Part shown: piece by piece, positions 6,124 to 62,714 of the stretch
Numbering within the stretch: position 1 is the stretch's first letter
Layout of the letters: the number at the start of each line of letters is the position of its first letter
Source of the DNA: an uncultured Clostridia bacterium
GTDB taxonomy: Bacteria; Bacillota; Clostridia; UMGS1883; UMGS1540
Assembly: GCA_937966555.1 (NCBI GenBank)
Contig: CALCLY010000036.1
Coordinates: 122,116-186,115, forward strand
Length of the DNA: 64,000 bases
Reading direction: 5' to 3'
Made by a program: the position numbers and the translations under genes
The notes under the pieces: generated by a model
The model's database searches: none
What the model saw: the letters and a program-made list of their open reading frames with translations, nothing else
What the model was told of the DNA's origin: nothing

Positions 6124-7860
6124 ATGAAGCCTTTGCTATGCCCGGTTGTCGGAAAGGAGAAACGAATTATGACAACTCAAAATATTATAGGGCAAACAAC
6201 AGAAGAAATAACTGCATTGTACGGAAGATTATCACAAGATGACGGTTTGGAGGGCGAAAGCAACAGCATATTCAATCAAAAAGAAATTCTGATGAAATAT
6301 GCAAAAGAGCACAATCTGAAAAATCTGAGATTTTTTATTGATGACGGAATTTCAGGTACAACCTTTGAGCGAAGCGGCTTTAAGGAAATGCAAGCACTTG
6401 CAGAAGCCGGAATTGTAAAAACTATTGTGGTAAAAGATTTATCCCGTTTCGGCAGAAACTACATTGAAGTCGGCGAATATCTTGAAATCAAATATCCCAC
6501 TCTCGGCGTAAGGTTTATATCTATTCAGGAAAATGTTGACACAATGCAAAACACAGGTGCGGAAATGATGCCGTTTCATAATATATTTAATGAATGGTAC
6601 GCCGCACAGACAAGCAAGAAAATTCGTGCCGTATGGCAGATGAAAGCCTCAAGCGGAAAGCGTGTCGGCTCATCTGTCCCTTACGGATATATGAAATCTC
6701 CCGAAGATAAGGAAAAATGGATAATTGATGAAGAAGCCGCAGAGGTTGTCAGAAAGATATTTTCACTATCTCTCTCCGGGCGAGGTATTTCACAAATCGC
6801 CCGTCAATTAGAGCAAGAAAAAATACTTATTCCTACGGCATATAAAATAGAAAAAGGATTATCCGCATCGCACAAGTATCCCGAAAAACCCTATTATTGG
6901 GATTCATCAACCGTTGCAGGAATAATTGATAACAGACAGTATACGGGATGTACTGTAAATTTCAAAACAACAACAGTAAGCTACAAAGTTCATAGGGTTA
7001 TACGTAAATCCGAAGATGAGCAGCAAATAATTCCTAACACACAAGAACCGATTATAGATGAGGACTTGTGGTTACGAGTTCAAGAGCTTCGTCAGCATAA
7101 GAGAAGACCGACATCTACGGGAAGGACAAGCCTGTTTTCGGGTTTGGTTTATTGCCCCGATTGCGGAGCAAAATTGCATTTTGCCGCCGCTAAGAGTATG
7201 ACAAGACAGCAGGAGCATTTCAGATGTTCAAATTACAAGAGCGGTCGGGGTGAATGTCAAATACATTTCATAAGAGATGTAGTTCTTGAAAAAATAGTAT
7301 TTGAAGCCATAAGCAACTTATCTGATTTTGTCAGATGTTATGAATCGGTATTTTTGTACTTGATGGCAACAAAAAATCAAACGTCAAGAAAAAGTAAGCT
7401 TCAAAAACTGAAAAGCAAGGTGGAAAACGAAAAAAGACGAATATCCGAGCTTGATGTGATTATTTCACGCATTTACGAGGACAATATTTTAGGCAAGATA
7501 AGCGATGAAAGATATTCCCGAATGTCTGTTATGTACGAAAACGAGCAAAAAGAGCTTATAAAAACAGTTTCCGCCGAAGAAAAAGAATTGGAAACAGCCG
7601 AGCAAAAAAATGTTGATATGCGGCTGCTGCTAAAAACGCTGCGAGAATTGACCGATTTTAAGGAGCTTACTCCGACAATCGTTAATTCTTTGATACAACG
7701 GATAGAAGTTCACAACAACGATAAGTATGATGGTCATTGCCACGTAAAAGTCGATATTTACTTTACTGCCGTGGGAATGATTGATGTTCCTGATGAAAAA
7801 GAAATATTGGATATAATAAATAAAATCCAAGATAATCCACAGATGTACAAGGTTGGATAA
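6124..7860 (+). CDS. Large serine recombinase (TnpX/TndX-type integrase of the element).
   Basis: 578 aa. The N-terminal resolvase catalytic domain reads YGRLSQDD...VVKDLSRFGRN, and a recombinase/zinc-ribbon C-terminal domain (CPDCGAKLHF...CSNY) follows. The gene is at the terminus of the element. Confidence 0.85.
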   Translation: MKPLLCPVVGKEKRIMTTQNIIGQTTEEITALYGRLSQDDGLEGESNSIFNQKEILMKYAKEHNLKNLRFFIDDGISGTTFERSGFKEMQALAEAGIVKTIVVKDLSRFGRNYIEVGEYLEIKYPTLGVRFISIQENVDTMQNTGAEMMPFHNIFNEWYAAQTSKKIRAVWQMKASSGKRVGSSVPYGYMKSPEDKEKWIIDEEAAEVVRKIFSLSLSGRGISQIARQLEQEKILIPTAYKIEKGLSASHKYPEKPYYWDSSTVAGIIDNRQYTGCTVNFKTTTVSYKVHRVIRKSEDEQQIIPNTQEPIIDEDLWLRVQELRQHKRRPTSTGRTSLFSGLVYCPDCGAKLHFAAAKSMTRQQEHFRCSNYKSGRGECQIHFIRDVVLEKIVFEAISNLSDFVRCYESVFLYLMATKNQTSRKSKLQKLKSKVENEKRRISELDVIISRIYEDNILGKISDERYSRMSVMYENEQKELIKTVSAEEKELETAEQKNVDMRLLLKTLRELTDFKELTPTIVNSLIQRIEVHNNDKYDGHCHVKVDIYFTAVGMIDVPDEKEILDIINKIQDNPQMYKVG

Positions 7861-7870
7861 CAAGGAAAAT

Positions 7871-7900
7871 GGAGTAGCTCCTTGATTTTGGAACTACTCC
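7871..7900 (+). terminator. Hairpin 10 bp after the serine recombinase stop (an 11-bp stem with one mismatch and an 8-nt loop). It could be a terminator or part of the element-end recombination site.
   Basis: ggagtagctcc-ttgatttt-ggaactactcc. Confidence 0.4.
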
Positions 7901-7976
7901 ATAAAAAACTTCCTTATCTGGCGTTGGCAAACGTCAACCGACTTTTTAAACAGCCCCTTTTCGTTTTTTTTATTTA

Positions 7977-9194
7977 TTATTTATTTACTATTCTTAAAGT
8001 TTCCCTTGCTATGGCAAGCTCTTCGTTTGTGGGAAGGAGGAGAACTTTAACTTTCGAATCGGGTGCGGAAATTACGCGTCTTTCGCCTTTTACGTTATTT
8101 GCTTCGTCATCGATTTTAACACCGAGGTATCCGAGATAATCATCGCAAATAAGTTTGCGTGCTTTTATATCGTTTTCGCCGACACCTGCCGTAAATGCGA
8201 TAGCGTCAACACCATTCATTGCAGCGGCATATGCGCCGATGTATTTTGCAACTCTGTATCTGAAAGCTTCAAGAGCCGCTTCTGCCTGATGGTTACCAGC
8301 TGCCGCAGCTTTGTCAACATCGCGGAAGTCGGAAGAAATGCCGCCGCTCATGCCCAGGATACCGGACTTTTTGTTGAGTATATTGAGCATTTCGTTAATG
8401 TCGATTCCTTCATGATTGCAGATAAACTGAAGCGCAGCGGGGTCAATGTCGCCGGAGCGAGTTCCCATGATAAGTCCCTCCAAAGGAGTGAGACCCATTG
8501 ATGTGTCAACACATTTGCCGCCTATGGAAGCAGATATGCTCGCGCCGTTTCCGAGATGGCATACGATAACTTTAGCTTTGTCGGGATCAAGGTTTGCCAT
8601 TTTTATAGCTTCGCCCGAAACAAACATATGGCTTGTGCCATGGAAGCCATAGCGGCGGAGCTTGTATTTTTTATAATAATTATAGGGGATAGCATAAAGA
8701 TATGCTTTTTCTTCCATTGACATGCCGAACGCCGTGTCAAATACAGCAACGTTGGGCTTACCCGGCATTGCTGCTTCGCATGCTTCAATACCTATAAGGT
8801 TTGCGGGGTTGTGAAGCGGTCCCAAATCAAAACACTCACGGATGACTTTTTTAACGTCCTCGTCAACCTGAATTGATTCCGTATATGTATTTCCGCCGTG
8901 GAGTACACGGTGACCGATGGCATAAATATCGGAAGTGTCTGCGATAACACCGTGCTCTTTATCCGTGAGCGCATCAAGAACCAATTTTATTGCATCTTTG
9001 TGCGAGGGCATGGGTGTTTCGGTTTCGTATTTGTCCTTGCCTGTGGGCTTATGCGTGAGTTTCGAGCCGTTTATGCCGATTCTTTCGCAAAGACCTTTTG
9101 CAAGAACCTGTTCGCTTTCGCTGTCAATAAGCTGATACTTAAGCGAAGAACTTCCGCAGTTTACTATGAATATTTTCATGTTTTTCTCCTTCAA
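7977..9194 (-). CDS. ackA: Acetate kinase.
   Basis: 405 aa with the N-terminal MKIFIVNCGSSSLKYQLID motif and acetate kinase signatures throughout. Confidence 0.9.
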   Translation of the reverse strand: MKEKNMKIFIVNCGSSSLKYQLIDSESEQVLAKGLCERIGINGSKLTHKPTGKDKYETETPMPSHKDAIKLVLDALTDKEHGVIADTSDIYAIGHRVLHGGNTYTESIQVDEDVKKVIRECFDLGPLHNPANLIGIEACEAAMPGKPNVAVFDTAFGMSMEEKAYLYAIPYNYYKKYKLRRYGFHGTSHMFVSGEAIKMANLDPDKAKVIVCHLGNGASISASIGGKCVDTSMGLTPLEGLIMGTRSGDIDPAALQFICNHEGIDINEMLNILNKKSGILGMSGGISSDFRDVDKAAAAGNHQAEAALEAFRYRVAKYIGAYAAAMNGVDAIAFTAGVGENDIKARKLICDDYLGYLGVKIDDEANNVKGERRVISAPDSKVKVLLLPTNEELAIARETLRIVNK

Positions 9195-14017: not shown

Positions 14018-14109
14018 GGACGGGTATCGAAGTGGTCATAACGGGGCTGACTCGAAATCAGTTTGTCGGTAATACCGGCACGTGGGTTCGAATCCCACCC
14101 CGTCCGCCA
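14018..14109 (+). tRNA. tRNA-Ser (anticodon CGA).
   Basis: 92 nt. The acceptor stem is GGACGGG/CCCGTCC with discriminator G and an encoded CCA. The anticodon loop is CTCGAAA, a long variable arm is present, and the T-arm is GGTTCGAATCC. Confidence 0.85.
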
Positions 14110-14112
14110 ATT

Positions 14113-14160
14113 ATGCGGGTTTGCTTAACTTTTGCGAACCCGCATTTACTTTATGTTTTT
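14113..14160 (+). terminator. Rho-independent terminator after the tRNA.
   Basis: Stem atgcgggtt/aacccgcat followed by a T-rich tract. Confidence 0.5.
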
Positions 14161-25469: not shown

Positions 25470-28400
25470 TTATTTTAGGTTTTCCAGCACACGCATAAAT
25501 ACCGCGGCTGCCTGCGCTCTTGTCGTATTGGCCTTTGGTGCAAAGCTCCCATCCGTATTACCTGTCATAATGGACTTTTCCGCCGCCCATGTTACAGCGT
25601 CCTTCGCATAGTCTGAAATGTCGCTGTTGTCCATATAGGCTGTGCTGCCGCTTGTCGTTATATCATATCCCTTGAATGTTGCATAGCGATAGATCATTAC
25701 TACCATCTGCTCTCTGGTTATATTATCATTCGGAGCAAATTGATTTTCGGAAATTCCGAAGATTATACCGTTATTGCTTGCCCACGCAACAGCCTTTTCA
25801 TAATAGCTTCCGCTTTCTATGTCAATAAAGGCGGCTGCAGCTGTCTGCGGCTCATTTTCCATTCTGTAAAGAATTGTAACAAACATTGCCCTTGTAATAT
25901 CGCTTTGGGGTGCAAATTCCGTATTTGATACGCCTTTCATCAGACCGTTTTCGTATGCGTATTTCACCGAATCATAAAACCAGTCGTTTTTGTGAATGTC
26001 TGTAAACGGATTTTCCCATTCTGTCGGTTTTGGTGGGTCAACCGGATCAACAGGCTTTTCGTTTTCGTTCCACTTTGCATAAAGCGTAAAGTCCTTTGTA
26101 ACCTTGCTTGCAAAATCATATTTTGCAGTCAATTTTTCATCTGTGTACCAGCCGTCAAAGGTAAAACCTTCTTTTGCAGGAGCAGTCGGCTCTTTAACAA
26201 CACTATTTTTTGTTACGGAAGATGATGTAATTGCGTTTCCGCCGTTTGTTTCAAACTTAACTGTGTAGCGTGTTGTTCCGCCGCCGCCACCGCCGCCGCC
26301 ACCGCCGCCGGACGAATTAACAGTAAAGCGGATTGTCTTATCAATCGTGGTCAAATTGGTGGCTGTTACACGAACTGTTGCGGTGTAAGTGCCTGCGGCC
26401 AAGCCTGTGTTGGGCTTGATGGTGAAAGTTGTGGTGCCGGATGTTGCCAGATTCGTATTAAAACCCGTCTTATCCAGCGTGAAGCTGTCGGCATTGGCTC
26501 CGGTCAGGGTCACATCCAGAGAAGCAAGAGCACCGGTGCCGGTATTGGTGATCGTAAAGGTCTCTGCGGTCTGCTCGCCGTAGCCTACGGTCCGTGCAGC
26601 AAAAGTTTTACCGTCCGGTGTGACTGTTGCCGTATAAGTCAGGGGCACATCGTCTGCCGGGACGGTGACCGTAGTGGTTGCACCTGCAAAGTGTGTATCA
26701 GTTTCCGCTATGCGGACATAGTAGGTGCCTGCGGTAAGTCCGGTGATCTCGGTGCCGGAGCATACAGTACCTGCGGGGCTGGCAAAGTTAGAGTCGGTGC
26801 TGTACTCCATAGCTGTGGTTGTACCGGTTATCTTACCGTCGGAGCCGCCCAAAGTGGTGGGATTCACTCCGTTCAAACCGGTAGGAGCACCGGGACTGTC
26901 AGCCTTTTTAACCGCAGCGGTTGCGGCGCTGGTAAGTGTGCCGGTTTCCTCGCTGCTGGAAATCTCCACGGTGATGGTCGAGCCGATGTCGGCCTTAACC
27001 AGCGTGTAGGTGCTGTTCATTGCGCCGGAGATGTCGGAGCCATCACGCTTCCACTGATAGGACAGCGTGCCGGTATTATTGCCGCTTTCAAGAGATGCTG
27101 TCAGGGTCTGACCGAACTTAGCCGTACCGGTGATCGTGGCTGTGCCGGTCAGGGCGGGGTTCTCCGTCCAGCGCGCGTAATATTCGCTACTTGAATCTGT
27201 ATAAACTGTGTCCAGACTCAACAAAGTGCCGCCGCTTTCTGCTGTATACCACCCGGCAAAGATGTAGTGCTCTTTTGTCGGTGTCGGCACCTGTTCCGCG
27301 GTCAACTTGCCGTCCGTACCGGTAACAAGTTCCACACGATAACTTTCATCTCCGATTTTTCCGCCCTGCGTATAGAAGCCAACGATATATTTTGTAACGC
27401 CGCCGAGAGGACTCATAGAAAACGGAACGCCGTAAGAATATTTCACTTCGTCTATCGTATAGTTAGTATACACAACCCCCGGGTTATTGCCTCCCAAGGT
27501 GACATCTGTTTCATTCAGCTCTGCCAGTGCCAACCCGTCCTGTGCCTTGAAGTATATCCACAGAGTGTATTTAATCCCCGAAATGAACTGTGCAGAAAGC
27601 TTTGTTGCGTCAGAATAACTTCCGCCGGAGTCTGAGTATTGCCACTTATACGTGAATTCTACACCCGCCGTATTGCAGGTGACAACCGCATCCGCAACAT
27701 TTTCTCCCTCCGTATATCCGGTATAGGAAAATGAAACGCTGTCAATCGCTCCCCACAAGGCATATACCGTGGTTGCCTCGCTGAAAACCGTTGTCTCCGT
27801 TATCTTCATTCCTCCGCTTGCTGCGGTATACCATCCGTCGAAGGTGTAGCCCTCCCTTGTCGGAACCGGAAGTGATGCCAATTTACCTTTATCCGCCGCC
27901 GGTATCGTTATTGTATCCGTATCCTTGCCGTTTACCTTGCCGCCGTTTGCATCAAATGTTACATCAATGTCAACGGCGGGCACCCAGCGCGCGTAAAATT
28001 GGTTTCTTGGATCTGTATAAACTGTGTCCAGACTCAACAAAGTGCCGCCGCTTTCTGCTGTATACCACCCGGCAAAGATGTAGTGCTCTTTTGTCGGTGT
28101 CGGCACCTGTTCCGCGGTCAACTTGCCGTCCGTACCGGTAACAAGTTCCACACGATAACTTTCATCTCCGATTTTTCCGCCCTGCGTATAGAAGCCAACG
28201 ATATATTTTGTAACGCCGCCGAGAGGACTCATAGAAAACGGAACGCCGTAAGAATATTTCACTTCGTCTATCGTATAGTTAGTATACACAACCCCCGGGT
28301 TATTGCCTCCCAAGGTGACATCTGTTTCATTCAGCTCTGCCAGTGCCAACCCGTCCTGTGCCTTGAAGTATATCCACAGAGTGTATTTAATCCCCGAAAT

Positions 28401-28664
28401 GAACTGTGCAGAAAGCTTTGTTGCGTCAGAATAACTTCCGCCGGAGTCTGAGTATTGCCACTTATACGTGAATTCTACACCCGCCGTATTGCAGGTGACA
28501 ACCGCATCCGCAACATTTTCTCCCTCCGTATATCCGGTATAGGAAAATGAAACTGCTTCTATCTCTGTTCCCGCCGCACTCGCCGTCACGCCCATGGCGG
28601 GCACGAGGGAAAGCAGCATTGCCAGTGTCAGTAAAACAGAAAAAAATTGTCTTGTCTTTTTCAC
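25470..28664 (-). CDS. Large S-layer-homology (SLH) anchored surface protein with duplicated ~272-aa modules, Flg_new (Listeria-Bacteroides) repeats and a poly-Gly linker.
   Basis: Three C-terminal SLH domains begin at FTDIHKNDWFYDSVKYAYENG, FIDIESGSYYEKAVAWASNNG and YMDNSDISDYAKDAVTWAAEKS. The true start is GTG at 28664 (RBS AAAGGAGGAT 8 nt upstream), giving the signal peptide MKKTRQFFSVLLTLAMLLSLVPAMGVTASA. Confidence 0.85.
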   Translation of the reverse strand: MKKTRQFFSVLLTLAMLLSLVPAMGVTASAAGTEIEAVSFSYTGYTEGENVADAVVTCNTAGVEFTYKWQYSDSGGSYSDATKLSAQFISGIKYTLWIYFKAQDGLALAELNETDVTLGGNNPGVVYTNYTIDEVKYSYGVPFSMSPLGGVTKYIVGFYTQGGKIGDESYRVELVTGTDGKLTAEQVPTPTKEHYIFAGWYTAESGGTLLSLDTVYTDPRNQFYARWVPAVDIDVTFDANGGKVNGKDTDTITIPAADKGKLASLPVPTREGYTFDGWYTAASGGMKITETTVFSEATTVYALWGAIDSVSFSYTGYTEGENVADAVVTCNTAGVEFTYKWQYSDSGGSYSDATKLSAQFISGIKYTLWIYFKAQDGLALAELNETDVTLGGNNPGVVYTNYTIDEVKYSYGVPFSMSPLGGVTKYIVGFYTQGGKIGDESYRVELVTGTDGKLTAEQVPTPTKEHYIFAGWYTAESGGTLLSLDTVYTDSSSEYYARWTENPALTGTATITGTAKFGQTLTASLESGNNTGTLSYQWKRDGSDISGAMNSTYTLVKADIGSTITVEISSSEETGTLTSAATAAVKKADSPGAPTGLNGVNPTTLGGSDGKITGTTTAMEYSTDSNFASPAGTVCSGTEITGLTAGTYYVRIAETDTHFAGATTTVTVPADDVPLTYTATVTPDGKTFAARTVGYGEQTAETFTITNTGTGALASLDVTLTGANADSFTLDKTGFNTNLATSGTTTFTIKPNTGLAAGTYTATVRVTATNLTTIDKTIRFTVNSSGGGGGGGGGGGTTRYTVKFETNGGNAITSSSVTKNSVVKEPTAPAKEGFTFDGWYTDEKLTAKYDFASKVTKDFTLYAKWNENEKPVDPVDPPKPTEWENPFTDIHKNDWFYDSVKYAYENGLMKGVSNTEFAPQSDITRAMFVTILYRMENEPQTAAAAFIDIESGSYYEKAVAWASNNGIIFGISENQFAPNDNITREQMVVMIYRYATFKGYDITTSGSTAYMDNSDISDYAKDAVTWAAEKSIMTGNTDGSFAPKANTTRAQAAAVFMRVLENLK
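26279..26311. repeat. GGC/GGT triplet-repeat tract encoding an 11-residue poly-Gly linker in the SLH protein.
   Basis: ccgccgccaccgccgccgccaccgccgccgg, which is codon GCC/ACC read on the minus strand. It is in-frame slippage-prone. Confidence 0.6.
27195..28553. repeat. Perfect tandem direct duplication inside the SLH gene: 543-bp identical blocks at 27195-27737 and 28011-28553, with a period of 816 bp.
   Basis: Identical 122-aa alternative-frame ORFs (27267..27635 and 27999..28451) and identical DNA were read at an offset of 816 bp. Confidence 0.8.
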
Positions 28665-28692
28665 ATTTATATCCTCCTTTTGATGTGATGTT

Positions 28693-29280
28693 CTACTTGC
28701 CTCCGATATTCCGGCTTGAAATTGCATTACCGCAATACTCGCATTTGCCGGAGCTTCCGGCGCGAATTCTTGTTGTTCCGCTGCATTTTTCACACACAAT
28801 GTTAACAAAGCTTGTTTTACTGCCTTCTCTGCCCGAAAGAATCACGCAGGGCATGCCCTGCTTTTGCAGAGTGCAGTCACAGAATACTCCTTTGCCGAAA
28901 AGCTTCTCAAGCTCGGAAAGTACCTTGAACGGCGGTTTCCCCGATTGCTTTGCAAGCTCGTCAATTGTCACCATGCCGTCAGCATCACACATAAAGATTG
29001 AGTTGTAGCGATATGCAAGACCTGCCCTTCTGCCGTTTTTAATCCCGTTTAACAAAAGCAATCCGGACGGAACAACCATGACTATATTGGTAATCAAGTT
29101 ATCGCGAAGCTCTTCGTTATACCCGGTAACCCCGGAAATAATTCCAAACAGAAAAACCGCCGTGAAGAATCCGCCTATAATCATTTGTATGTGCTTTTTT
29201 AATGTAAGCCTTGCAATTGCCACTTTTGAAATATATGTTCCGCCACCCGAAAAGATTGTTTGATTCGTCTTCATTTTCAC
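28693..29280 (-). CDS. Membrane protein (2-3 TM) with a C-terminal CxxC...CxxC zinc ribbon.
   Basis: 195 aa with C-terminal CEKCSGTTRIRAGSSGKCEYCG. It lies 29 bp upstream of the SLH gene start. Confidence 0.5.
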   Translation of the reverse strand: MKMKTNQTIFSGGGTYISKVAIARLTLKKHIQMIIGGFFTAVFLFGIISGVTGYNEELRDNLITNIVMVVPSGLLLLNGIKNGRRAGLAYRYNSIFMCDADGMVTIDELAKQSGKPPFKVLSELEKLFGKGVFCDCTLQKQGMPCVILSGREGSKTSFVNIVCEKCSGTTRIRAGSSGKCEYCGNAISSRNIGGK

Positions 29281-56412: not shown

Positions 56413-58755
56413 ATGTTTGATATTGTCTTTAAACAAATGACAAATGAATATGAGCCATGCTATACATGGCTTTGGAATACAAAAATCACTCGATACGGAA
56501 TAAAAAAAAGAATTGATGAAATGCATGAAACAGGCATAAAATCATTTTACGTGTTGGGGGAACCGAAAAATTTCCGACCGCAAAAAAGAAAAACCTTCCT
56601 TGAGCCGGACTATTTGTCGGATGAATACATAGAATTGCTGCGCTATGCCATCGGGTATGCGAAGAAAAAAGGTATGCGCTGCTGGCTTTACAACGAAGGA
56701 GGATTCCCTTCGGGCATGGCGGCGGGGAAAATAGTCTCAACAGATCCAAGCCTGCGGAAAAAGGGGATTTCGGTACGGGAAACAAATGTAAGCAAGGGCG
56801 AAAAATACAAACCGCATGAAAGGCTTATCAGCGCTTTTTTTGAAAATTCAAGGATAAAGGAAGATTTTGTTTTTCCGCGCGACGGAGCCGTTTGTGAATA
56901 TACAGCCTGCGAAAAGCGAGAAATATCGGCATGGTGCGATGAGAAGCAGGCAGATATTGCAGATGAGAAAACAACCGCGCTGTTTTTGAAGGTCACGCAC
57001 GAAAGGCTTTTAAAGGGCTTGGGCGATGAGAATATGCGCCGCTGCCTTTATCTGTTTGACGATGAATCAAACATGGGCGGCTGGTCGGAGGGCTTTGAAG
57101 TCTTGTTTATGAACAAATACGGATATGACATTGCCGGTTTCATGCCATATATATGCGGAAAAAAGAAAAAAGGAAACGAAAATGATAAAAAGGCAAAAGC
57201 GGATTACGAAATGCTTTGCGGAGAGCTGCAAAACGTCAATTATTTCCTCAAAATGAAGCGGTGGCTCAATAAACACGGCATGAAAAGCGTCGGACACCTT
57301 GATAAGGATAACGAAACAGACGGCTTTATGCAGCTGCATTACGGCAATTCTCTTAAAATACTGAGAAGCTTTGATGTGCCCGGAATAGATGTTATATGGG
57401 GGCAGATAACATATCCGAAGGATGAAAAATGCTGCTTTGAAGGGTATGAATTCTTTCCGCTTATTGCGTCCTCGGCATCAAGGCAAAACGGAAGCAATGA
57501 AGCGCTGTCTGAAACCTTTGCGGTATACGGCTCGCAGCTTAATGCCGAGGAAATGCGCTTTGTTATTAATTATCAGGCGGTAAGAGGAATCAATATTTTT
57601 AATTTTATGACCATGTCATACGAAAAGAAGGGCATTTTGCCGTTTCAGTACAGACCGAGCTTTATCCCCGAAAACCCGGGCTGCGAATGCCTTTCGGAAA
57701 TAAACGGGTATACCGCAAGACTTTCATATCTCATGAGAAGCGGAAATGCCGTAATCGATACGGCGCTTTACTATCCCTTCAGAACAATATGCGCAGGGGG
57801 AGAAGAAGCCGAAAAAGCAAAAGAAAGCTTTGAAAAAAAGGGGCTTATGCTGGAAAGAGCGGGGATATGCTTTGACCTGGTCGACGAGGAATATCTTAAA
57901 AGCCCTAAAAAGCCCGTAGAATACAAAAATATATATGTTCCGTTTGCTCCGCTTGAAACAGATGAAACGAAGGCCTTGCTTTCAAAGTATAAGGCGTGTG
58001 CCGAGCCGCTGATAAAGTGCGAAAACTTCGTCAGATGCAGAGCGGTGGAAAACGGAGGCGAGAGACTTTATTTTGTCACAAACGAGAGCGGCGTGAGAAA
58101 GAAAACGGAAATTGTACTGCCCGAGAACAGAAACGTATACGAGATTAATTTGCGTGACGGCAAAATTTACGGCGTGAAGTGCAAAGCTGCGGATAACGGT
58201 GTAAAAATTACGATTGATGCTTACAGGGGAGAGGGAAAGATGTTTCTTTGTACCGACAGAAGCATAGATGCGGTGAATGTAAAAACAGAAGAACCCGTAA
58301 CCCTTATTTGCGGCAGCGCCCATATTTTAAGAAGATACACGGTTGAAAACGGAGCCGTAAACAAAAAAGTAAACGAAAAAACGGTATTGGGCTATGCTCC
58401 GAAGGATTTTTCGGGAGAAATAAAATATTCGCTTAAACTGCCCGGTGAAATTGAGGAGGGAGAGTATTATATAGAGCTTGATGAGCCGAGATATTTTGTT
58501 AAAGCATATAAAAACGGCGGAAAAATCGCAGAGGTAACAATGCCTCCTTATATAATTAAAACATTCTTAAAGCCGGGAGACGAGCTTGATTTCCTTGTAT
58601 CAAATACGGCTGCAAACGCCTGTGCGGCTACGGATTTTTTTGATAATATCCCGCCCGATAAGCTTGGCAGCTACAGTGCGGATATGATAAAGCGCGAAAG
58701 AAAAGCCCTGTGCGGAGGGTTTGGCGGCAGAGTTATGCTGTACAAAATCATTTAA
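56413..58755 (+). CDS. Large cytoplasmic glycoside-hydrolase-like protein of unassigned family (780 aa).
   Basis: There is no signal peptide. N-terminal YTWLWNT...SFYVLGEP...CWLYNEGGFPSG resembles TIM-barrel glycosidase-like DUFs. The assignment is tentative. Confidence 0.4.
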   Translation: MFDIVFKQMTNEYEPCYTWLWNTKITRYGIKKRIDEMHETGIKSFYVLGEPKNFRPQKRKTFLEPDYLSDEYIELLRYAIGYAKKKGMRCWLYNEGGFPSGMAAGKIVSTDPSLRKKGISVRETNVSKGEKYKPHERLISAFFENSRIKEDFVFPRDGAVCEYTACEKREISAWCDEKQADIADEKTTALFLKVTHERLLKGLGDENMRRCLYLFDDESNMGGWSEGFEVLFMNKYGYDIAGFMPYICGKKKKGNENDKKAKADYEMLCGELQNVNYFLKMKRWLNKHGMKSVGHLDKDNETDGFMQLHYGNSLKILRSFDVPGIDVIWGQITYPKDEKCCFEGYEFFPLIASSASRQNGSNEALSETFAVYGSQLNAEEMRFVINYQAVRGINIFNFMTMSYEKKGILPFQYRPSFIPENPGCECLSEINGYTARLSYLMRSGNAVIDTALYYPFRTICAGGEEAEKAKESFEKKGLMLERAGICFDLVDEEYLKSPKKPVEYKNIYVPFAPLETDETKALLSKYKACAEPLIKCENFVRCRAVENGGERLYFVTNESGVRKKTEIVLPENRNVYEINLRDGKIYGVKCKAADNGVKITIDAYRGEGKMFLCTDRSIDAVNVKTEEPVTLICGSAHILRRYTVENGAVNKKVNEKTVLGYAPKDFSGEIKYSLKLPGEIEEGEYYIELDEPRYFVKAYKNGGKIAEVTMPPYIIKTFLKPGDELDFLVSNTAANACAATDFFDNIPPDKLGSYSADMIKRERKALCGGFGGRVMLYKII

Positions 58756-58852
58756 ATACAGAAATTTCATTTTTAGCTTTAAATTAAAAGCATAAAGAGA
58801 GGGTGGTGCAAAACGAAATTGCAATCACCCTCTTTAATATATTTATTATTTT

Positions 58853-58930
58853 TCGCTGACGATTCTTAAAGTTTCTCTTGCTATGGCAAGCTCCTCTTTT
58901 GTCAGAGAAAGAAGGAAAACGAATGGCTGC
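58853..58930 (-). pseudogene. Remnant 3' end (last ~25 codons) of a second acetate kinase gene.
   Basis: The reverse translation ...VFLLSLTKEELAIARETLRIVSEK* compares with the intact ackA C-terminus ...VLLLPTNEELAIARETLRIVNK*. DNA 58862-58902 matches 7990-8030 at 38 of 41 positions. Confidence 0.6.
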
Positions 58931-59008
58931 AAAAATACAGACTTGCGCATCAAGCGTATGCCCCCTCGGGCAGGGGCGGGCAAACGAGATGTTCAAAACT
59001 GTATATCT

Positions 59009-59176
59009 GTAATCCTGAAATCAGTACACTCCGACAGAATAAAGGAAAATATTGATATTTTCGATTTTGTTCTTACAGATGAAGAAATGAGCGCACTTTT
59101 GGCGCTTGATACCGCAAAACCGATGATTGGAAAAGCCGAAAACTCCGAAACAACTGAATTTGCAATGACATGGTAA
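59009..59176 (+). pseudogene. Remnant C-terminal fragment of an aldo/keto reductase.
   Basis: ...VILKSVHSDRIKENIDIFDFVLTDEEMSALLALD... is the canonical AKR C-terminal motif. No upstream AKR body is present. Confidence 0.55.
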
Positions 59177-59411
59177 AATCTTTCTTTACTCTAAAACAAC
59201 TTGCCGATTGATAGCTTATCGTTTTTCGGCAGGTTACACGAGTTTTCTGTTCCAGGCGAAAAAGAAGTATGTTTGAATATTGTTATTGACTTAAAGATTC
59301 CCGGGTATGCCCCAAGTATGCTTTACAGTTCAAGCAAGACTTGAAAAACAGAGAAAAGGAAGATAAAAAGAAAAATACGAACAATCATAAAAATGAAAGT
59401 TCGTATTTAGA

Positions 59412-59503
59412 TGGCGGAGAAGGAGAGATTCGAACTCTCGCACCGGTTTCCCAGCCTACTCCCTTAGCAGGGGAGCCCCTTCGACCTACTTGGGTACTTC
59501 TCC
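59412..59503 (-). tRNA. tRNA-Ser (anticodon GCU).
   Basis: 92 nt on the minus strand. The acceptor stem is GGAGAAG/CTTCTCC with discriminator G and CCA, the anticodon loop is CTGCTAA, and there is a long variable arm. Confidence 0.85.
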
Positions 59504-59532
59504 GTATGTGTTAAGTTTTAAAAGAGAATGTT

Positions 59533-59619
59533 TGGCGGAGAAGGTGGGATTCGAACCCACGGCTCTTTCGAGTCACTGGTTTTCAAGACCAGCTCCTTAA
59601 ACCGCTCGGACACCTCTCC
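59533..59619 (-). tRNA. tRNA-Ser (anticodon UGA).
   Basis: 87 nt on the minus strand. The D-arm is GTGTCCGAGCGGTTTAAGGAG, the anticodon loop is CTTGAAA, and the T-arm is GGTTCGAATCC followed by CCA. Confidence 0.85.
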
Positions 59620-59768
59620 GCGTTGAGTTTAACAGCATATATTATTATAACAAAACGAAAACAGTTTGTCAAGAGTTTTTTAGAAAAAAATGCATTTTTC
59701 AAAAAAATAATATAAAAGAGTGTCATATACGCTTTACTTGCATATAATAAAAAAGGCGGTGATTAAAC

Positions 59769-62096: not shown

Positions 62097-62237
62097 AAAA
62101 AGGGGATGTTAAAAAACTCCGGAACGCAAGCAAATTTCTCCTCTCGACGTACCCATGTACGCCTTCGGGTATCCCAAACTTTAGTTTTGGCTCAGTTTGC
62201 CGATTCCAAAGCTTTTTTCCTATCCCCTTGAAAAAAT

Positions 62238-62275
62238 GGGCTGCTTAAAAAGTCAACCGACTTTTTAAACAGCCC
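62238..62275. terminator. Bidirectional terminator palindrome with 17-bp arms and one mismatch. It has flanking T-runs on both strands.
   Basis: gggctgcttaaaaagtc-aacc-gactttttaaacagccc. The right arm plus spacer is identical to 7933-7956. Confidence 0.55.
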
Positions 62276-62714
62276 GCTTTTTTATAAACTTGGATATTAT
62301 AAGATTAAATACAAGTTTTGAAACGACAAGACCTACGGCAATCGCGCCGCCTATTTTTACTGTATAAAGCAAATTGCTTAAAAAACTTGCGTTTTCACCG
62401 CGGAGAAAATCCTCCATGGTATAAAATATTCTTGCTCCCGGTACGAGCGGCACCATACCGATTATAAGATACAGCGTTACGGGAACTTTGCGCAGGCGCG
62501 CAAGTATTTCTGCCTGAAGACCGAGGGCCGCCGCAGCAAAAAGATATTGCATTATATCGGTTTCGAACATTCCGCCGAAAAGCAGATATACAAGCCACGA
62601 GAGCATTCCGCAAAGCCCGGAAAGAAATACATCAGCTCCTCTCACGTTAAAAAGAAAGCAAAAGCCGCATGAGCCGAAAAAAGCATAAAGACACGGCAAA
62701 ACAAATTCCTGCAT
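62265..62714 (-). CDS. Threonine/serine exporter family protein, small subunit (ThrE_2/DUF3815-like).
   Basis: 149 aa with four TM helices. It is adjacent to the ThrE-like gene. Confidence 0.65.
   Translation of the reverse strand: MQEFVLPCLYAFFGSCGFCFLFNVRGADVFLSGLCGMLSWLVYLLFGGMFETDIMQYLFAAAALGLQAEILARLRKVPVTLYLIIGMVPLVPGARIFYTMEDFLRGENASFLSNLLYTVKIGGAIAVGLVVSKLVFNLIISKFIKKRAV

What the first reader, a model, noticed from the sequence alone, without database searches (positions are those of the whole stretch)
58790..59620. Recombination scar: 3' remnants of a second ackA and of an aldo/keto reductase facing each other beside two tRNA-Ser genes
At 58853-58930 (minus strand) the last ~25 codons of an acetate kinase are preserved (...LTKEELAIARETLRIVSEK*). 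The DNA is 38 of 41 identical to the 3' end of the intact ackA 50 kb away (7990-8030), and the same TTTATTATTT-type downstream context follows. At 59009-59176 (plus strand) only the C-terminus of an aldo/keto reductase survives. Both are truncated at their 5' sides around 58930-59009, and tRNA-Ser(GCU) and tRNA-Ser(UGA) follow.

Because the 3' ends of tRNA-Ser genes face inward on both sides (14109 and 59412), the ~45-kb interval between them may be composed of islands inserted at tRNA-Ser loci. One speculative reading is that the ackA 3' copy is a displaced target-site or junction fragment from an element that integrates into the ackA 3' end.
Basis: seen in the sequence. Interest (0 to 1): 0.55.

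Follow-up and report, generated by a model that had tools for sequence, protein, structure and literature searches.

The report
Dead gene-fragment junction beside tRNA-Ser genes
This is an ordinary, non-functional scar where the last 16 codons and terminator of an acetate kinase gene were joined by sloppy recombination to the back end of a dead aldo/keto reductase gene, in a stretch of a gut bacterium's chromosome that is often rearranged.

Summary
Window 58846-58896 (-) holds the stop codon plus 16 codons (EELAIARETLRIVSEK*) of an acetate kinase gene. Its own strong bidirectional terminator (58796-58835) is still attached. The piece is fused, with no spacer, to the last ~125 codons of an aldo/keto reductase (AKR) pseudogene (58897-59176, +). 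The two fragments lie back-to-back, not facing. The joint sits at a 5-nt microhomology (TTTGT).

The scar is present in every strain of this human-gut species that I could fetch, and it is visibly decaying. The ackA piece is not a copy of the resident ackA tail (...RIVNK*). It is a different, authentic ackA tail plus terminator, also seen in a sister lineage. In a few short metagenomic contigs that tail closes an intact ackA lying tail-to-tail with the same GH106 sugar gene.

The best reading is that a sliver of ackA travelled with, or stayed with, the GH106 cluster when illegitimate recombination joined it into the AKR gene. That event deleted MerR and the AKR 5' half. It is not an attachment-site duplication.

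Both tRNA-Ser flanks and the ackA terminator are genuine hot spots for mobile elements in other strains. Interest is low: a known kind of scar.

The parts
56413..58755 (+). GH106-like glycoside hydrolase gene, last gene of the AraC/500-aa/778-aa/GFO/GH106 sugar cluster. It is convergent with the ackA stub.
   Evidence: Pfam PF17132, E=1e-16. The same cluster is present in L018, L019 and L042.
58796..58835 (.). Bidirectional terminator hairpin ('termX'), shared by GH106 and the ackA stub.
   Evidence: Folds at -21.8 kcal/mol on the + strand (z -5.8) and -18.4 on the - strand (z -4.6), with U-rich tails. Its ackA-proximal arm follows an intact ackA in sister lineage L054. The whole hairpin follows intact ackA in L048, L049, L051 and L053.
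58846..58896 (-). ackA 3' stub: stop codon plus 16 codons (EELAIARETLRIVSEK*).
   Evidence: 38/41 and 48/57 identity to 7974-8030. The tail allele equals that of P0038, P0039, P0045 and P0046, and is close to L054. No Pfam hit, as expected for 16 codons.
58897..58902 (.). Junction. T at 58897 is AKR-type; TTTGT at 58898-58902 is the microhomology shared by both parents.
   Evidence: Three-way alignment of scar, ackA and AKR.
58897..59176 (+). AKR pseudogene remnant (from ...LFCQRK to ...FAMTW*). It carries a 1-nt deletion near 58961 and a 76-bp deletion at 58990-59001 that is specific to this strain.
   Evidence: Full-length homologues with a divergent MerR gene are seen in L027-L031, L043 and L044.
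59412..59503 (-). tRNA-Ser(GCU). Its 3' flank (59396-59412) is where other strains carry serine-recombinase elements.
59533..59619 (-). tRNA-Ser(UGA).
59644..59672 (-). Consensus sigma-70-type promoter (TTGACA-17-TATAAT, with TG) for the tRNA-Ser pair.
   Evidence: 12 of 12 matches.
7974..8030 (-). 3' end of the intact resident ackA (gene 7977-9179; tail ...RIVNK*), homologous to the stub.
7929..7961 (.). Remaining half of the resident ackA terminator hairpin. It is cut by insertion of the serine-recombinase element.
   Evidence: family D3; -8 kcal/mol, z 0.3, against -27.7 for the intact copy at 62238-62275.
6124..7860 (+). Large serine recombinase (Resolvase/Recombinase/Zn_ribbon_recom/DUF4368) at the end of a mobilisable element next to the resident ackA. 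It is not part of the scar.
   Evidence: Relaxase, ParB and NikA-like neighbours are annotated in L034. Empty sites are seen in L032, L036, L039 and L040.
14018..14109 (+). tRNA-Ser(CGA), an integration site for tyrosine-integrase islands in other strains. In the window it is followed by a type I R-M island.

Best explanation
The feature is a fixed, non-coding junction scar with two parts.

The left part is the authentic 3' end of an acetate kinase gene (stop plus 16 codons), together with its native bidirectional terminator and the convergent GH106 sugar cluster. The right part is the distal ~45% of an AKR gene. In relatives, that AKR gene is paired with a divergent MerR regulator.

The two parts were joined by one illegitimate-recombination event at a TTTGT microhomology. 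The event removed MerR and the AKR 5' half.

The ackA sliver is there because, in the source arrangement, ackA and the GH106 cluster were tail-to-tail neighbours. The breakpoint simply fell 16 codons inside ackA.

I consider the most likely route to be a homology-facilitated-illegitimate-recombination-like import or translocation of the GH106 cluster. Its donor would have been a strain or sister lineage carrying the ...SEK(Q) tail, and its target the AKR-tRNA-Ser(GCU) locus. That route is inferred, not shown.

Today nothing in the scar is expected to be expressed as protein. The only plausibly useful piece is the terminator hairpin. It should stop GH106 transcripts, and it should stop antisense read-through from the tRNA side.
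For: Junction anatomy:
- ackA identity stops and AKR identity starts within the same 6 nt, around a shared TTTGT.

The stub is a real ackA tail, not a copy of the resident one:
- Its diagnostic bases (GAG, ATC, GTC, the extra GAA) and the terminator's ackA-proximal arm match sister lineage L054, which is 87% identical in nucleotides over pta-ackA.
- The same tail closes intact 401-402-aa ackA genes in P0038, P0039, P0045 and P0046.
- In L048, L049, L051 and L053 that ackA is followed by the same hairpin and the convergent GH106 gene, at ~99% identity to the window.

The AKR side:
- The closest AKRs are ~275 aa with a divergent MerR gene.
- Neither MerR nor the AKR N-terminal half is present in the window.

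Fixation and decay:
- The scar is present in L018, L019, L022 and L024-L026, and in protein clusters seen on dozens of contigs.
- Different indels occur in different strains.

Supporting points:
- The hairpin is strong on both strands.
- Microhomologies of 3-10 bp are the reported signature of homology-facilitated illegitimate recombination (PMC6382021).
Against: The direction of the event is not resolved. No homologous 'anchor' end of an imported segment was identified.

The contigs showing intact ackA next to GH106 are all under 6.2 kb and come only from metagenomes. Most strains share a 32-nt exact run between the resident tail and the stub. That run could create such contigs as assembly chimeras at k<=31. 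One of them, L047, stops 6 nt after the stop codon, like a graph tip.

In L054 the gene beyond the terminator is an aminotransferase, not GH106.

SNP density does not change sharply across the junction.

The resident ...IVNK tail resembles the tails of more distant ackA genes. Which tail is ancestral therefore remains uncertain.
Confidence: 0.65

Rival explanations
1. In-situ decay of a second gene copy. The locus once held a complete ackA (probably pta-ackA), convergent with GH106 and upstream of MerR-AKR. It would have arisen by segmental duplication, or this was the ancestral ackA position. A single deletion from inside ackA to inside AKR then removed everything between, while the copy at 8-10 kb carried on.
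For: Back-to-back 3' fragments are exactly what a deletion between two divergently oriented genes leaves. A related lineage shows the same kind of scar between MerR and AKR (P0007). The stub keeps a normal terminator shared with a convergent neighbour. Contigs with intact ackA next to GH106 exist.
Against: It needs an extra duplication or a second acquisition of pta-ackA. No strain or relative with two ackA genes was seen among 8000 ackA candidates scored (120 listed) or 80 related loci. The stub's tail differs from the resident tail at 5-6 positions within 17 nt, so a recent duplication is excluded.
Confidence: 0.25
2. Attachment-site duplication. An element that integrates into the ackA 3' end carried or displaced a copy of its target, so the stub would be half of an att site.
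For: A large-serine-recombinase element does sit beside the resident ackA. The DNA downstream of ackA is hypervariable among strains. The two ackA tails are direct repeats.
Against: The element is inserted in the terminator hairpin roughly 45 nt beyond the stop and duplicates no ackA coding DNA. It lies outside the interval bounded by the repeats. That interval contains ackA itself, pta, an ABC transporter, a tRNA, R-M genes, S-layer genes and sugar genes, with no recombinase. Strains without the element keep the same resident tail. The serine recombinases found at tRNA-Ser(GCU) in other strains are only 33% identical to this one and insert beside the tRNA, not at the stub.
Confidence: 0.03
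3. Chance similarity or assembly artefact.
For: None beyond the short length of the stub.
Against: No match in 100 shuffles. The reading frame and the stop are conserved. The same junction appears in many independent assemblies, including 25-204-kb contigs.
Confidence: 0.01

Closest known systems
Homology-facilitated illegitimate recombination junctions (de Vries & Wackernagel 2002; Prudhomme et al. 2002; as summarised in PMC6382021)
   Same: An abrupt joint between unrelated sequences at a 3-10-bp microhomology. Resident DNA is lost on the recipient side (MerR and the AKR 5' half). A sliver of a donor neighbour gene is carried along.
   Different: No homologous anchor end was identified, and natural competence of this organism is unknown. 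The process is inferred from the product only.
Deletion scars between divergent genes (e.g. the MerR|AKR remnant in the related lineage P0007)
   Same: Two 3' gene fragments lie back-to-back with no spacer. The same AKR family is decaying repeatedly.
   Different: Here the partner is an ackA tail rather than the AKR's own MerR neighbour, and an intact ackA exists 50 kb away.
tRNA-associated genomic islands, and Tn916/Tn5397-type elements with tyrosine or large serine recombinases
   Same: Strain-variable DNA starts at or inside the 3' ends of tRNA-Ser(CGA) and tRNA-Ser(GCU). Integrase and recombinase genes sit next to these ends in other strains.
   Different: The scar itself has no recombinase, no flanking att repeats and no empty-site counterpart. 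It lies about 235 bp from the tRNA and is fixed in the species.
Phage/ICE integration into gene 3' ends with a replacement 3' end
   Same: Two diverged copies of a gene's 3' end lie in direct orientation.
   Different: The DNA between the copies is core chromosome that includes the gene body. The copy order is wrong for an insertion into ackA.

Membership tests
Site-specific integration att duplication | Direct repeats bound one contiguous mobile element that carries its recombinase next to one repeat | tested here: not met
   The interval 8031-58845 holds the ackA body, pta, an ABC transporter, tRNA-Ser(CGA), R-M genes, S-layer genes and sugar genes, with no recombinase. The serine recombinase at 6124-7860 lies outside it.
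Site-specific integration att duplication | Empty-site strains retain a single repeat with the flanks joined | tested here: not met
   Strains lacking the ackA-adjacent element keep the same resident tail (L032, L036, L039, L040). Every fetched strain whose contig reaches the DNA downstream of GH106 has the scar. No L-a3-AKR joint was seen.
Acetate kinase gene (Pfam PF00871) | Full acetokinase domain of ~390 residues | tested here: not met
   The stub has 16 codons and no Pfam hit. tblastn finds only residues 380/384-400 of ackA there. The resident gene 7977-9179 meets the criterion (E=7e-147).
Aldo/keto reductase gene (Pfam PF00248) | Full (alpha/beta)8 domain of ~290 profile positions in one reading frame | tested here: not met
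   Only profile positions 255-289 score in the window (17 bits, below the 24-bit cut-off). Homology covers the last ~125 of ~275 residues and is broken by a frameshift and a 76-bp deletion. It is a pseudogene.
tRNA-associated genomic island | Strain-variable DNA begins at or within the tRNA 3' end, with an integrase adjacent | tested here: met
   This holds for the two flanks in other strains. Homology breaks at 14057-14113, with tyrosine integrases in L032, L033, L037 and L038. It breaks at 59373-59412, with serine recombinases in L017, L020 and L021. In the window itself no integrase remains at either tRNA.
Homology-facilitated illegitimate recombination product | Microhomology of 3-10 bp at the illegitimate joint | tested here: met
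   TTTGT is shared by ackA and AKR at 58898-58902, with patchy matches around it. The definition is taken from PMC6382021.
Homology-facilitated illegitimate recombination product | One side is foreign DNA, anchored at its other end by a homologous crossover | tested here: inconclusive
   The stub allele resembles the sister lineage rather than the resident tail.

The most novel reading that the evidence does not exclude
The resident ackA tail and the stub act as 32-nt direct repeats. Recombination between them would recurrently excise or tandemly amplify the 50.9-kb segment between them, which carries pta-ackA, an ABC transporter, tRNA-Ser(CGA), a type I R-M system, S-layer genes and the GH106 sugar cluster. 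On this reading, the short contigs L047-L053 with 'intact ackA next to GH106' are the circle or duplication junction. They would then be neither an ancestral arrangement nor an assembly chimera.
Probability: 0.08. Interest if true: 0.45.

Novelty: new member of a known kind. Interest (0 to 1): 0.2.

Why it matters
In itself it matters little. It is a pseudogene junction of the kind that illegitimate recombination and island turnover leave in many genomes.

It is useful in three ways:
- As a marker. It records that ackA and the GH106 sugar cluster were once neighbours.
- As a map. It shows that the ackA terminator and both tRNA-Ser flanks are rearrangement hot spots in this gut species.
- As a warning for annotation and assembly. 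The 97-aa ORF over the scar is spurious. The 32-nt repeat can break metagenomic contigs or mis-join them.

Tried and rejected
Searches that gave nothing useful:
- A scan of species-representative genomes with the M14 peptidase gave only distant relatives (<=56% aa) without synteny or tRNA-Ser.
- Searching the 45-aa stub ORF for acetate kinases with the same tail returned only the scar ORF itself.
- An exact 56-nt pattern specific to 'intact ackA with the SEK tail' found nothing in the JGI metagenome contigs.
- 80 ackA loci from metagenomes showed no conserved gene downstream of ackA beyond this species, so the ancestral neighbour could not be polarised.
- The exact GH106 protein look-up returned only window-type contigs.
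- Rfam found nothing but the two tRNAs.
- Cluster look-ups gave no organism names.

Ideas tested and dropped:
- The AKR 5' half and MerR were sought in the window and in all fetched loci of the species, and were absent.
- SNP density across the junction showed no clear step.
- A tandem duplication of the present arrangement as the origin of the stub was rejected. The order of the intact gene and the stub is wrong, and the tails differ.

Full report
**Observation**

Window 58862-58902 matches 7990-8030 at 38 of 41 positions, with no such match in 100 shuffles. The repeat finder extends this to 48 of 57 positions, 58846-58902 against 7974-8030 (family D4; alignment). On the minus strand the copy reads EELAIARETLRIVSEK*. 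The intact ackA (7977-9179, Pfam PF00871, E=7e-147) ends ...EELAIARETLRIVNK*. ARAGORN and Rfam confirm tRNA-Ser(GCU) at 59412-59503 (-), tRNA-Ser(UGA) at 59533-59619 (-) and tRNA-Ser(CGA) at 14018-14109 (+).

**Corrected anatomy**

Full-length relatives of the AKR fragment (about 275 aa, 76-88% identical) were found through a protein search and contig look-ups. Aligning them with the window shows that AKR-derived DNA begins at 58897 (...LFCQRK...), not at 59009. Two lesions hid the upstream part:
- a 1-nt deletion near 58961;
- a 76-bp deletion between imperfect 12-nt repeats at 58990-59001, present in this strain only. Strains L019, L022 and L024-L026 lack it and have an 87-aa AKR ORF.

The ackA-derived part is therefore only the stop plus 16 codons (58846-58896).

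The two fragments are fused directly and lie back-to-back. ackA identity ends and AKR identity starts within 6 nt, around a TTTGT that both parents share. Immediately beyond the ackA stop lies a strong hairpin at 58796-58835. It folds at -21.8 kcal/mol on one strand and -18.4 on the other (z -5.8 and -4.6) and has U-rich tails. It serves as a shared terminator with the convergent GH106-like gene at 56413-58755.

**Population context**

Looking up the exact YunB and AckA proteins showed that the window belongs to a common human-gut species with many assembled strains. Its closest species-level representative genome is only 56% identical on a neighbouring protein.

The scar is present at 98-100% identity in every fetched contig that reaches the DNA downstream of GH106: L018, L019, L022, L024-L026 and L042. 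Its accidental ORFs form clusters seen on dozens of contigs. Different strains carry different small lesions. No full-length AKR of this lineage was found. The scar is therefore old, fixed and decaying. It is not an assembly error.

**Where the ackA piece comes from**

Among the ackA proteins closest to the window's, a few that are 99-100% identical end in ...RIVSEK or ...RIVSEKQ, exactly like the stub. These are P0038, P0039, P0045 and P0046.

Their contigs (L047-L053) align to the window's ackA body and then switch to 58902 -> 56353. That gives an intact ackA followed by the same hairpin and the convergent GH106 and GFO genes. The two tail types are identical up to ...ACTTTAAGAAT, 17 nt before the resident stop. 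They share AAATAATAAATA around the stop and then diverge completely.

A sister lineage gives independent evidence. L054 has a 96%-identical AckA protein, and its pta-ackA DNA is 87% identical. Its tail is ...RIVNEKQ. It shares with the stub the GAG, ATC, GTC and extra-GAA positions and the ackA-proximal arm of the hairpin. The stub plus hairpin is therefore a genuine ackA 3' end. It is not a copy of the resident tail and not a generic terminator.

One caveat applies. All contigs with intact ackA next to GH106 are under 6.2 kb and come only from metagenomes. Most strains share an exact 32-nt run between the resident tail and the stub, which is enough to create chimeras in k=31 graphs. L047 ends 6 nt past the stop, like a graph tip. 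I therefore treat that arrangement as probable but unproven. L054 cannot be such a chimera, because its sequence is distinct.

**The AKR side**

In relatives the AKR is always preceded by a divergent MerR gene, and the gene after it varies. The module is decaying repeatedly in this group:
- nonsense codons in L027 and L029;
- a MerR|AKR back-to-back deletion in P0007.

Neither MerR nor the AKR N-terminal half is present anywhere in the window or in the fetched loci of this species.

**Mechanism**

Shown:
- one illegitimate joint at a 5-nt microhomology;
- loss of MerR and the AKR 5' half;
- an authentic ackA tail and terminator that remain attached to the GH106 cluster.

Inferred: ackA and the GH106 cluster were tail-to-tail neighbours in the source arrangement, and the breakpoint fell 16 codons inside ackA.

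The most economical route is a single event of the homology-facilitated illegitimate-recombination type. In it, a segment ending in ...GH106-hairpin-ackA tail replaced DNA up to the middle of AKR. Microhomologies of 3-10 bp are the described signature of that process (PMC6382021). I could not find the homologous anchor, and I could not decide which tail is ancestral. The resident ...IVNK tail resembles the tails of more distant ackA genes, while the ...SEK tail resembles the sister lineage.

The main rival is a deletion that destroyed a complete second ackA at this site. It needs an extra duplication, and no genome with two ackA genes was seen.

**The att-site idea**

A mobilisable element does abut the resident ackA. 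It carries a large serine recombinase (6124-7860), ParB and a relaxase. Comparison with empty-site strains (L032, L036, L039, L040) shows that it is inserted in the loop-proximal part of the terminator hairpin, about 45 nt past the stop. This destroys the hairpin: -8 kcal/mol (z 0.3), against -27.7 for an intact copy at 62238-62275. The element duplicates no ackA coding DNA, and it lies outside the interval bounded by the two tails. That interval contains ackA itself and other core genes, with no recombinase. The att-site reading is rejected.

**The tRNA-Ser flanks**

- At tRNA-Ser(CGA), homology between strains breaks at 14057-14113. Tyrosine integrases and duplicated tRNA segments occur there in L032, L033, L037 and L038. 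The window has a type I R-M island at this position.
- At tRNA-Ser(GCU), L017, L020 and L021 carry elements whose serine recombinase is only 33% identical to the window's. These start 0-39 bp from the tRNA 3' end.
- The interior of the interval, 25-58.7 kb, encodes S-layer-type and sugar-utilisation proteins and shows no island hallmarks.

**Verdict**

The feature is an ordinary, fixed recombination scar made of two pseudogene tails. It sits in a region where the ackA terminator and the tRNA-Ser flanks are hot spots for mobile DNA. Interest is low. Its kind is known.

Noticed in passing
window 7900-7975 and 62098-62290; L039/L040 downstream of ackA: The resident ackA terminator is one copy of a dispersed ~180-250-bp intergenic repeat built around a perfect 38-nt hairpin, which is intact at 62238-62275. 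In the window the copy beside ackA has lost one arm to the insertion of a serine-recombinase mobilisable element. The palindromic hairpin looks like that element's target.
   Followed up: partly
L033, L035, L037, L038, L054 (DNA just downstream of ackA): A ~280-bp element with ~25-nt terminal inverted repeats (GCCACARCCCGRYAAGGAAGTATTG) sits in the same hairpin, in either orientation. The end of the window's serine-recombinase element (7908-7928) matches the repeat at 17 of 21 positions. This suggests a non-autonomous derivative using the same site. No copy is present in the window.
   Followed up: partly
L017 1-9600 versus L033 1-4800: The same cargo order (M28/SLH peptidase, sigma70_r4, HTH_16) ends in a large serine recombinase next to tRNA-Ser(GCU) in one strain. 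In another strain it ends in an Xis-like gene plus a tyrosine integrase next to tRNA-Ser(CGA). This is a Tn916/Tn5397-style swap of integration modules.
   Followed up: no
L041 and L055, immediately after the ackA stop: In some strains a different sugar-utilisation island (GFO-type oxidoreductase 52-69% identical to the window's, AraC regulator, heparinase-like gene) starts right after the ackA stop. Its hairpin matches 24 of 29 positions of the one next to the stub. With the other variants, ackA has at least six different downstream contexts in this lineage.
   Followed up: partly
L027, L029, L043, L044; protein P0007: The MerR/AKR module closest to the remnant is itself a pseudogene in several related lineages. 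There are nonsense codons, frameshifts, and a back-to-back MerR|AKR deletion.
   Followed up: partly
window 59644-59672 (-): A perfect extended sigma-70-type promoter (TTGACA-17-TATAAT with TG) lies upstream of the tRNA-Ser(UGA)/tRNA-Ser(GCU) pair.
   Followed up: no
window 27168-27467 and 27984-28283: A 300-nt direct repeat at 98% identity lies inside the 1112-aa SLH/Listeria-Bacteroides-repeat surface-protein gene (25470-28808).
   Followed up: no
window 58883-59176 (+): A 97-aa ORF runs from the antisense of the ackA stub across the junction into the AKR remnant. Gene callers report it (P0015, P0150), but it is an accident of the scar.
   Followed up: yes
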